A stretch of DNA of 64,000 nucleotides, taken from an uncultured Clostridia bacterium. Lineage in GTDB: Bacteria > Bacillota > Clostridia > TANB77 > CAG-508. The notes under the pieces were generated by a model, which was not told where the DNA came from, searched no databases, and was given only the letters and a program-made list of their open reading frames with translations. A program made the position numbers and the translations under genes. The DNA is taken from positions 5,290-69,289 of the forward strand of contig CAKOPZ010000005.1 in NCBI GenBank assembly GCA_934101145.1. Reading direction: 5' to 3'. Positions within the stretch are counted from its first letter, which is position 1. Each line of letters opens with the position of its first letter. Positions 8,438-8,887 of the stretch are shown in pieces.

Positions 8438-8887
8438 TTGGGTTTAGTAGAAGAAACAAAAAGAATAAAAGAAGTGCATCCAAATTATATCCTGTTATTT
8501 AAATCAGGTGAATTTTATAAGGCTTTTGGTAAAGATGCATATATACTAAGTAACTTGTTTGGATACAAAATAAAAATGGTAAAAGACAATGTTGCAACAT
8601 GTGGATTTCCTTTAAGTTCAATATATAAAGTTAGAGCAAGGATAGAAGAAAAAAGCATAAATTATATGCTTATTGATCCTAGAAATAACTATGATGTTGA
8701 TACAAAGGAAGATTTTAGAAATTTAAATGAATATGATAAGCAGTTTGAAAAGGCATATGCTAATACTAAGTGCAAAAACAAAATTCAAAATATTGCAGAT
8801 AGATTGGATATGCTTGTTGAAAAACCAAACTTCAAAGAAATTATAAGAAAGGTAGAAGACATATTAGATGAAGCAGGAGAAATTTAA
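8438..8887 (+). CDS. MutS-domain-I-like small protein (DGR accessory, MSL-type)
   Basis: TTG start 7 nt after AAAGGAGA. HPNYILLFKSGEFYKAFGKDAYILSNLF...CGFP follows the pattern of the MutS N-terminal mismatch-binding domain (HP..LLF.R.GDFYE.F..DA). Confidence 0.7.
   Translation: MGLVEETKRIKEVHPNYILLFKSGEFYKAFGKDAYILSNLFGYKIKMVKDNVATCGFPLSSIYKVRARIEEKSINYMLIDPRNNYDVDTKEDFRNLNEYDKQFEKAYANTKCKNKIQNIADRLDMLVEKPNFKEIIRKVEDILDEAGEI

What the first reader, a model, noticed from the sequence alone, without database searches (positions are those of the whole stretch)
8438..8887. DGR-associated MutS domain-I-like protein with Phe-X-Glu changed to Phe-X-Lys
The 149-aa ORF between target 3 and avd matches the MutS N-terminal mismatch-recognition domain in pattern. 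Compare HPNYILLFKSGEFYKAFGKDAYILSNLFGYKI...CGFP with E. coli MutS [33 protein letters not shown]...AGIP.

It has no connector, clamp or ATPase domains. In MutS the F-x-E motif (GDFYELF) stacks on and hydrogen-bonds the mismatched base. Here the Phe is kept but the Glu position is Lys (GEFYKAF).

As far as I recall, a MutS-like (MSL) accessory class has been listed in DGR surveys, but I know of no functional study. A mismatch-binding module next to an element that creates A-site mismatches during cDNA integration suggests a role in mismatch protection or in the directionality of repair.
Basis: partly seen in the sequence, partly recalled or inferred. Interest (0 to 1): 0.65.

Follow-up and report, generated by a model that had tools for sequence, protein, structure and literature searches.

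The report
MutS-like accessory gene of a DGR
A small gene inside a bacterial "targeted hypermutation" cassette encodes a cut-down copy of the mismatch-sensing head of the DNA-repair protein MutS. This accessory class is already catalogued but its function has never been tested; it most likely binds the mismatched DNA the cassette creates and keeps host repair from erasing the new mutations.

Summary
ORF 8438-8887 (149 aa, TTG start with a ribosome-binding site) hits Pfam MutS_I above threshold (E 6.7e-10). A confident AlphaFold model (pLDDT 92) matches only MutS/MSH domain I in the PDB. The domain is followed by a family-specific two-helix hairpin. Connector, clamp and ATPase domains are absent.

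It lies in a real DGR: four pilin-like targets, MSL, avd, TR, RT. VR3 differs from TR at 21 positions, all TR adenines.

The Phe-X-Glu to Phe-X-Lys change is real and family-wide. In 188 relatives Phe is kept in 185. The Glu position is K/H/Y/N and is Glu in only 16.

The link to DGRs is very strong. Of 80 species-level genome loci, 65 carry MSL+avd+RT, and avd usually overlaps the MSL stop codon. RT-MSL fusions and a second paralog next to RT also exist.

This is the MSL accessory class of Wu et al. 2018, so it is a new member of a known kind. I found no functional study.

Best mechanism (inferred): a Phe-wedge binder of mismatched heteroduplex, delivered with Avd-RT, that shields cDNA:VR mismatches from host MutS. 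Related hosts do encode MutS and MutL.

The parts
8438..8887 (+). MSL gene: 149-aa standalone MutS domain I (residues ~1-92) plus a C-terminal two-helix hairpin (99-147). The wedge Phe F26 is codon 8513-8515. K28, at the MutS Glu position, is codon 8519-8521.
8425..8431 (+). Ribosome-binding site (AAGGAGA) 7 nt upstream of the TTG start of MSL.
   Evidence: read directly; homologs all start MG[LIM]
8868..9377 (+). avd (169 aa). It overlaps the MSL 3' end by 20 nt, which suggests translational coupling. The same overlap is conserved in most homologous loci.
9452..9571 (+). Template repeat (TR), 39 adenines in 120 nt.
9883..10845 (+). DGR reverse transcriptase (320 aa).
7130..8299 (+). Target gene 3 (389 aa, pilin-like N-terminus). 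VR3 is at 8147-8266 and shows 21 differences from TR, all 21 at TR adenines.
5373..6506 (+). Target gene 2. VR2 is at 6354-6473 (24 of 31 differences at TR adenines).
2349..3476 (+). Target gene 1. VR1 is at 3324-3443 (23 of 29 differences at TR adenines).
36752..37903 (+). Remote fourth target paralog, about 27 kb away. VR4 is at ~37748-37870 (26 of 29 differences at TR adenines, plus a 3-nt insertion).

Best explanation
The ORF encodes an MSL (MutS-like) accessory subunit of a chromosomal diversity-generating retroelement in a gut Clostridia bacterium.

Shown:
- It is a MutS domain I fold with the wedge Phe at the tip of the same beta-hairpin as in MutS, followed by a family-specific helical hairpin.
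- It has none of the MutS parts that hydrolyse ATP, clamp DNA or talk to MutL.
- It is co-transcribed with avd and probably translationally coupled to it.

Inferred mechanism:
- MSL travels with the Avd-RT-cDNA complex.
- When the adenine-mutagenised cDNA pairs with the VR strand, MSL uses the Phe wedge and its basic N-terminal domain to sit on the many mismatches.
- With no ATPase it cannot become a sliding clamp or license MutL. It therefore acts as a local cap that keeps host MutS off the heteroduplex until replication fixes the new sequence.
- Replacing the acidic Glu by Lys/His/Asn/Tyr removes the residue that MutS uses for mismatch discrimination and repair authorisation. This should raise general affinity for distorted DNA. 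(The effect of Glu38 substitutions is from my recollection of Lebbink et al. 2006, which I could not read here.)
For: Fold and motif.

Family-wide selection on the wedge but not the Glu:
- F26 is kept in 185 of 188 members.
- Position 28 is K47, H34, Y26, N21, E16.
- A related host's own MutS keeps GDFYEMF while its MSL has GSFYKVF.

Physical link to the DGR machinery:
- 65 of 80 genome loci carry MSL+avd+RT, and 72 of 80 carry at least one of the two.
- The avd start overlaps the MSL stop in most loci.
- Distant members at 29-33% identity sit in other overlapping orders, avd-RT-MSL or MSL-avd-RT.
- A natural RT-MutS_I fusion exists, P0178. Wu et al. also report RTs with C-terminal MutS_I.

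A target for the shield exists. A related MAG has a full five-domain MutS 5 kb from its MSL-DGR, and Clostridium sp. CAG:343 has MutL.

Published context:
- mutS deletion raises B. ovatus DGR mutagenesis 5-10-fold in an all-or-nothing manner (10.1101/2024.11.15.621889).
- cDNA integration is replication-linked and is helped by removing MMR (PMC12875486; 10.64898/2026.07.21.739853).
- MutS-I modules also occur in polyvalent proteins of mobile elements, next to ArdC-N or DarA anti-defence domains.

Charge: the N-terminal domain has pI 9.0 and the C-terminal hairpin pI 5.0.
Against: - There is no experiment on any MSL.
- An isolated MutS domain I may bind DNA only weakly without the clamp domain.
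- BPP-1 and many other DGRs work without MSL. Wu et al. cite work showing that mutS is not required for BPP-1 retrohoming.
- In Bacteroides, the three Msl-bearing DGRs showed minimal activity in vitro and in gnotobiotic mice. The two without Msl were constitutively active. That comparison has n=5 and is confounded by regulation, but it does not favour a simple booster role.
- About 8% of family members keep the Glu.
- I could not test whether this window's own host has mutS/mutL; none lies within the 64 kb.
Confidence: 0.4

Rival explanations
1. MSL is a structural or processivity cofactor of the Avd-RT ribonucleoprotein and acts during cDNA synthesis. It would bind the TR-RNA:cDNA hybrid at A:N mispairs, or at mismatched primer termini, and help the RT extend past its own misincorporations. 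It would not act at the DNA integration step.
For: - Translational coupling to avd.
- An RT-MSL fusion, P0178.
- A second paralog, MSL2, overlaps the RT start by 4 nt in 18 of 80 loci.
- The conserved Phe wedge could equally stack on mispairs in an RNA:DNA hybrid.
Against: - From my own knowledge, Avd-RT of BPP-1 alone performs adenine-mutagenic cDNA synthesis in vitro, so no such cofactor is generally needed.
- MutS domain I is known to read B-form DNA from the minor groove. An A-form hybrid is a different substrate.
- Fusion and coupling are equally expected if MSL is merely delivered with the cDNA.
Confidence: 0.2
2. MSL is a targeting or annealing factor for homing. It would recognise a distorted DNA structure at the VR end (IMH/GC element, hairpin or fork) or stabilise the imperfect cDNA:VR pairing. 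This would be analogous to the HRDC accessory proteins of other DGRs.
For: - Wu et al. found MSL and HRDC genes mutually exclusive, with MSL always accompanied by avd. That pattern fits interchangeable DNA-binding helpers.
- This DGR serves four targets, one of them 27 kb away, so help with target finding is plausible.
Against: - No conserved structured element common to all four VR flanks was seen beyond the shared 3' coding end.
- The near-invariant Phe points to base-stacking at a mispair or extrahelical base rather than to structure-specific junction binding.
Confidence: 0.15
3. MSL is a negative regulator or quality gate. It would bind heteroduplex or TR/VR DNA and limit retrohoming. Alternatively it would recruit host repair so that the outcome has a direction.
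For: In Bacteroides, the Msl-bearing DGRs were nearly silent under laboratory conditions, while the Msl-less ones were constitutive.
Against: - The protein has no connector or ATPase domain. By the known mechanism MutL is loaded by the ATP-bound MutS sliding clamp (PMC4521584, title and abstract), so MSL cannot recruit MutL that way.
- An inhibitor would not be expected to be so stably retained and translationally coupled to avd across at least 80 species.
- The Bacteroides comparison is confounded by pilus-operon regulation.
Confidence: 0.1
4. The ORF is a decaying fragment of a mutS gene, or a chance ORF with no function.
For: It matches only the first ~60 positions of the Pfam MutS_I model.
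Against: - Hundreds of relatives of constant length (~140-150 aa) share their own conserved motifs and a C-terminal hairpin absent from MutS.
- They have a fixed place in DGR cassettes.
- The fold prediction is confident.
- A related host keeps a separate intact MutS.
Confidence: 0.01

Closest known systems
MSL (MutS-like) accessory genes of DGRs (Wu, Gingery, Abebe et al., Nucleic Acids Res 2018, PMC5758913). Called Msl in the Bacteroides type V pilus DGRs (Macadangdang et al. 2024 preprint).
   Same: - Small protein (149 aa, within the reported 112-283 aa range).
- Near-neutral whole-protein pI (7.7).
- MutS domain I homology.
- Sits inside a DGR cassette together with avd, with no HRDC gene.
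- Diversified targets are pilus-like surface proteins, as in Bacteroides.
   Different: - This subfamily comes from uncultured, low-GC gut Clostridia MAGs (CAG:343/CAG:508-like).
- It has a fixed target-MSL-avd-TR-RT order and a 20-nt MSL/avd overlap.
- The passages I read from those papers do not mention the family-wide Phe-kept/Glu-lost pattern or the MSL2 paralog.
MutS / MSH6 mismatch-binding domain I (Pfam PF01624)
   Same: - Same fold, about 80-100 residues at 1.6-2.5 A rmsd.
- Same beta-hairpin carrying G-x-F-Y.
- The same D-A and G-[FIV]-P motifs.
- The wedge Phe is conserved.
   Different: - No domains II-V, so no ATPase, clamp or MutL interface.
- The Glu of Phe-X-Glu is replaced (Lys here).
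- The last third of domain I is replaced by an acidic two-helix hairpin with its own conserved N-x-Y motif.
MutS-I modules in polyvalent proteins of conjugative elements and phages (Iyer, Burroughs, Anand, de Souza, Aravind, J Bacteriol 2017, PMC5512222)
   Same: - A MutS domain I detached from the MutS ATPase and deployed by a genetic element that introduces foreign or mismatched DNA.
- Found in Firmicutes and Bacteroidetes.
- Two such proteins were recovered directly by this query (P0118, P0145).
   Different: - Those are tandem modules inside 1,300-2,300-aa multidomain proteins with ArdC-N or DarA_C.
- Some of them keep Phe-X-Glu.
- The MSL here is a free-standing DGR gene.
Dominant-negative MutL(E32K), used to raise oligo recombineering and engineered DGR efficiency in E. 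coli
   Same: It is a functional analogy only. It is a means of blocking mismatch repair so that an annealed, mismatched single strand is fixed.
   Different: It is an engineered protein, it acts globally, it acts on MutL, and it has no sequence relationship to MSL.

Membership tests
DGR MSL accessory class (Wu et al. 2018) | Small protein (112-283 aa) with detectable homology to MutS. | tested here: met
   149 aa. Pfam MutS_I E 6.7e-10. The Foldseek top 50 are all MutS/MSH.
DGR MSL accessory class (Wu et al. 2018) | Encoded inside a DGR cassette (RT plus a TR/VR pair with adenine-specific differences). | tested here: met
   RT is at 9883-10845. TR is at 9452-9571. VR3 shows 21 of 21 differences at TR adenines.
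DGR MSL accessory class (Wu et al. 2018) | Co-occurs with avd and not with an HRDC gene. | tested here: met
   avd at 8868-9377 overlaps MSL. No HRDC hit was found among the cassette ORFs scanned.
DGR MSL accessory class (Wu et al. 2018) | Homologs recurrently linked to DGR RTs. | tested here: met
   65 of 80 genome loci have MSL+avd+RT. Distant members are also inside DGR cassettes.
DGR MSL accessory class (Wu et al. 2018) | Direct sequence relationship to the 16 published MSL proteins (Legionella, Bacteroides and others). | not testable with these tools
   The supplementary sequences are not held.
Canonical MutS (MutS1) mismatch-repair protein | Domains II-V (connector, core/levers, clamp, ABC ATPase). 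| tested here: not met
   Only MutS_I is detected and the protein ends at residue 149. Compare the full MutS of a related host, which has domains I-V.
Canonical MutS (MutS1) mismatch-repair protein | Phe-X-Glu mismatch-recognition motif. | tested here: not met
   The motif here is F26-Y27-K28. Glu is present in only 16 of 188 relatives.
Polyvalent-protein MutS-I modules (Iyer et al. 2017) | MutS-I embedded in a large multidomain protein of a conjugative element or phage, usually with ArdC-N. | tested here: not met
   It is a stand-alone 149-aa ORF in a chromosomal housekeeping neighbourhood. There were no phage, plasmid or viral-contig matches.

The most novel reading that the evidence does not exclude
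MSL is a locus-restricted natural anti-mismatch-repair factor. It would be a MutS 'head' without its 'engine', delivered in cis with the DGR cDNA by binding Avd and/or RT. It would cap the mismatches of the cDNA:VR heteroduplex and so block host MutS only at the target, without making the cell a general mutator. In cassettes with two paralogs (MSL next to avd, MSL2 next to RT), the pair may mimic the asymmetric two-head arrangement of a MutS dimer.
Probability: 0.3. Interest if true: 0.7.

Novelty: new member of a known kind. Interest (0 to 1): 0.42.

Why it matters
How DGR cDNA replaces the variable region is still the least understood step of mutagenic retrohoming. It is also unclear how the resulting mismatch-dense heteroduplex escapes repair.

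Recent work shows that host MutS erases most events in Bacteroides. It also shows that engineered DGRs in E. coli benefit from disabling mismatch repair. The MSL class is the only DGR accessory gene with an obvious link to that problem, and it has never been tested.

This analysis gives a clear handle for testing:
- a confident structural model;
- one near-invariant residue to mutate (F26);
- a defined substitution to revert (K28E);
- a conserved coupling to avd;
- a simple epistasis prediction with mutS.

If the shield model holds, MSL could also be a compact and local alternative to global MMR knock-down in DGR- or retron-based directed-evolution tools.

Tried and rejected
VR diversification and expression of MSL could therefore not be checked in reads.
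- tblastn of MSL against the phage and plasmid collections, and a pattern scan of IMG/VR viral contigs, found nothing. This subfamily looks chromosomal. Structure search did find small MutS_I-only proteins in gut phage metagenomes.
- The broad 54-sequence alignment was too diverse for the genome pattern scan. The 21-sequence alignment was used instead.
- The supplements of Wu et al. are not held and Lebbink et al. 2006 is not held. The published MSL sequences and the Glu38 mutant data could not be consulted.
- PADLOC has no model matching MSL or Avd.
- No second MSL copy, mutS or mutL was found in the window: tblastn for MSL, motif scan for MutS/MutL, and Pfam on eight of the largest ORFs. Host MMR status for this genome is therefore unknown.
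- The 'mutS pseudogene fragment' reading was considered and rejected.
- A complex prediction of MSL with Avd or RT was not attempted.

Full report
**1. The observation**

It has a TTG start preceded by AAGGAGA at the right distance.

Evidence that it is a MutS domain I:
- Pfam MutS_I (PF01624) matches at E 6.7e-10, 39.6 bits against a gathering cut-off of 20.6. Residues 8-64 cover model positions 8-68 of 113.
- The NCBIfam full-length MutS equivalogs match only through their first ~60 positions, far below their cut-offs.
- A plain sequence search of PDB chains finds Thermus aquaticus MutS (E 2.5e-4). It aligns GEFYKAF with GDFYECF, so F26 corresponds to the intercalating Phe and K28 to the Glu of Phe-X-Glu.
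- An AlphaFold2 model built on 21 homologs is confident (mean pLDDT 92.1, pTM 0.80). It shows F26 at the start of the second strand of a beta-hairpin (strands 17-23 and 26-30), as in MutS.
- Foldseek against the PDB returns only MutS, MSH3 and related chains in its top 50. The best E is 5e-7, with 80-100 aligned columns and rmsd of about 1.6-2.5 A for the better superpositions.
- Residues 99-147 form two long helices that are not part of domain I. There is nothing corresponding to the connector, lever, clamp or ATPase domains.

**2. The surroundings**

The gene sits in a complete DGR.
- avd (8868-9377; NF033474 E 1.4e-10) overlaps the MSL 3' end by 20 nt.
- A 120-nt template repeat lies at 9452-9571.
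- The reverse transcriptase is at 9883-10845.

Upstream are three paralogous target genes (2349-3476, 5373-6506, 7130-8299). Their 3' ends carry variable repeats. A fourth paralog, 27 kb away at 36752-37903, also carries a VR.

VR3, next to MSL, differs from TR at 21 positions, all of them TR adenines. VR1, VR2 and VR4 show 23/29, 24/31 and 26/29.

The targets have a hydrophobic N-terminus resembling a prepilin or pseudopilin signal. This is weak: N_methyl scores E ~0.01, below threshold.

The neighbourhood is chromosomal housekeeping: mfd, aspS, mnmA, a PASTA kinase, pyrG, recG, valS, addA and dnaE.

**3. The family**

A word-indexed search found 46 close relatives (44-98% identity), nearly all 145-152 aa. 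An exhaustive HMMER scan of 1.84 billion cluster representatives found 817 clusters at E <= 1e-3 and 164 at E <= 1e-10. These are dominated by stand-alone proteins of about 140-150 aa.

In an alignment of 188 full-length members:
- The wedge Phe is present in 185.
- G24, D33, F57, N97 and Y99 are similarly fixed.
- The position of the MutS Glu is K47, H34, Y26, N21, E16, I9, V8, Q7, R6 (smaller sets).

A related MAG makes the contrast explicit. Its own five-domain MutS reads GDFYEMF, while its DGR MSL reads GSFYKVF.

The N-terminal domain is basic (pI 9.0) and the C-terminal hairpin is acidic (pI 5.0). The whole protein has pI 7.7.

**4. Association with DGRs**

A scan of one genome per GTDB species returned 80 loci. 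Nearly all come from uncultured gut Clostridia MAGs (rabbit, human, chicken, goat; they include Clostridium sp. CAG:343 and CAG:508).

Using the window's Avd and RT as probes:
- 65 of 80 loci carry MSL+avd+RT, and 72 of 80 carry at least one of the two.
- Of the 8 with neither, 2 are at contig ends and 4 have truncated MSL genes.
- The avd start overlaps or abuts the MSL stop in most loci. The RT follows about 0.6-1.2 kb later, in either orientation.

Contigs looked up by exact protein give the same picture, including what looks like a decayed cassette (MSL plus RT fragments, no recognisable avd). Members only 29-33% identical are also in DGR cassettes, arranged as avd-RT-MSL or MSL-avd-RT, again with overlapping genes.

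**5. Extra links to the RT complex**

- 18 of the 80 loci carry a second, divergent MutS_I gene, here called MSL2 (131-166 aa, motif G-I-F-[FY]-[IL]). It again keeps the Phe and lacks the Glu. It lies immediately upstream of the RT and overlaps it by 4 nt.
- One cluster, P0178 (604 aa), is an RT with a C-terminal MSL-like domain (GMFYN). This matches the RT-MutS_I fusions mentioned by Wu et al..
- One cluster, P0093, looks like an MSL-Avd fusion. It is N-terminally truncated and could be an assembly artefact.

**6. What is known**

Wu et al. 2018 defined MSL as one of four DGR accessory classes. [quoted passage not shown]

Macadangdang et al. (2024 preprint) note Msl in three Bacteroides pilus DGRs. 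They also show that deleting host mutS raises mutagenesis by a Msl-less B. ovatus DGR 5-10-fold, with an all-or-nothing pattern.

E. coli reconstitutions link cDNA integration to replication and remove MMR to see substitutions.

Iyer et al. 2017 described MutS-I modules in polyvalent proteins of mobile elements. At that time they called this the only occurrence outside MutS. Two such proteins were recovered here: P0118 with DUF285 and ArdC-N, and P0145 with DarA_C.

Five literature searches found no functional study of MSL.

**7. Mechanism**

Shown:
- The fold.
- The conserved wedge.
- The loss of everything needed for ATP-driven signalling.
- Operonic coupling to avd or RT.
- The existence of MutS and MutL in related hosts.

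Inferred: MSL rides with Avd-RT-cDNA and caps mismatches in the cDNA:VR heteroduplex, so that host MutS cannot start repair.

The Phe-X-Glu roles are summarised in PMC7672436: Phe intercalates and Glu contacts the mismatched base. From my own recollection of Lebbink et al. 2006, which I could not read here, Glu38 substitutions retain DNA binding, lose discrimination against homoduplex and lose repair authorisation. That would fit a protein selected only to bind.

I give this specific mechanism about 0.4. The rivals are a cofactor for cDNA synthesis on the RNA:DNA hybrid (0.2), a targeting or annealing helper analogous to HRDC (0.15), and a negative regulator (0.1). The last is kept alive by the low laboratory activity of the Msl-bearing Bacteroides DGRs. 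'Directionality of repair' through MutL recruitment is unlikely, because the parts of MutS that load MutL are absent (PMC4521584).

**8. Verdict**

This is a correct and well-read finding of a gene class that is already catalogued: a new member of a known kind.

Three things appear not to be in the passages I could read:
- the family-wide Phe-kept/Glu-lost rule;
- the conserved MSL/avd overlap;
- the MSL2 paralog next to RT.

Together with the recent MutS data they make the function directly testable. Interest is moderate.

Noticed in passing
window 36752-37903 (VR4 ~37748-37870): A fourth pilin-like target paralog lies 27 kb from the DGR. Its VR differs from TR mostly at adenines (26 of 29) and carries a 3-nt insertion relative to TR. 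It is either a remote target or a former one.
   Followed up: partly
window 2349-3476, 5373-6506, 7130-8299, 36752-37903: All four DGR targets begin with a prepilin/pseudopilin-like hydrophobic N-terminus (G-ITLIALVV, no Glu at +5). The N_methyl and GspG hits are only weak. This suggests the DGR diversifies the tip of a type IV pilus-like fibre in a Gram-positive gut bacterium. A distant MSL-DGR (L092) also has an N_methyl-type target.
   Followed up: partly
window 3603-4796: An AAA_14/DUF4143 ATPase is inserted between target 1 and target 2. It matches the PADLOC candidate defence family PDC-S01 at E 1e-143.
   Followed up: no
window 6569-6787 and 6791-6989 versus 1183-1971 and 2005-2203: The 3' end of the upstream rRNA/tRNA methyltransferase-like gene and its downstream spacer are duplicated (95% identity over 199 nt) in front of target 3. 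The target array therefore grew by segmental duplication that carried flanking sequence along.
   Followed up: no
L002 8082-8501 (-), plus 17 other genome loci (e.g. L026 12103-12510, L072 12077-12478): A second MutS_I paralog, MSL2 (131-166 aa, G-I-F-[FY]-[IL] motif), overlaps the RT start in 18 of 80 related DGRs. The window's DGR lacks it.
   Followed up: partly
P0118 (2323 aa) and P0145 (1329 aa): These are giant polyvalent proteins with three or four tandem MutS_I modules, next to DUF285 and ArdC-N in one and DarA_C in the other. Some modules keep Phe-X-Glu (GDFYEAY, GEFYESY) and others do not.
   Followed up: partly
L017 2302-4917: In a related MAG, a full five-domain mutS lies only 5 kb upstream of the MSL-DGR cassette.
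   Followed up: yes
BFVD hits A0A8S5PPT8 (153 aa), A0A8S5PL02 (74 aa), A0A8S5L9N2 (84 aa): Small MutS_I-only proteins exist in uncultured gut Caudovirales. Sequence-based scans of the phage collections with this MSL found nothing, so these are a separate, more distant group.
   Followed up: no
window 8361-8404: A 14-bp GC-containing hairpin (GTTTGTGTATGTCC-TTTT-GGGCATACGCAAAC) followed by a T-run lies between target 3 and MSL. It is probably the target gene's terminator, which would give MSL-avd-TR-RT its own transcript. A different hairpin sits at the same place after VR4.
   Followed up: no
L005 3058-3769 and L006 1166-1877: This looks like a decayed DGR. The MSL has an altered C-terminus, and the 96-aa downstream ORF matches RT rather than Avd. 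There is no intact RT.
   Followed up: no
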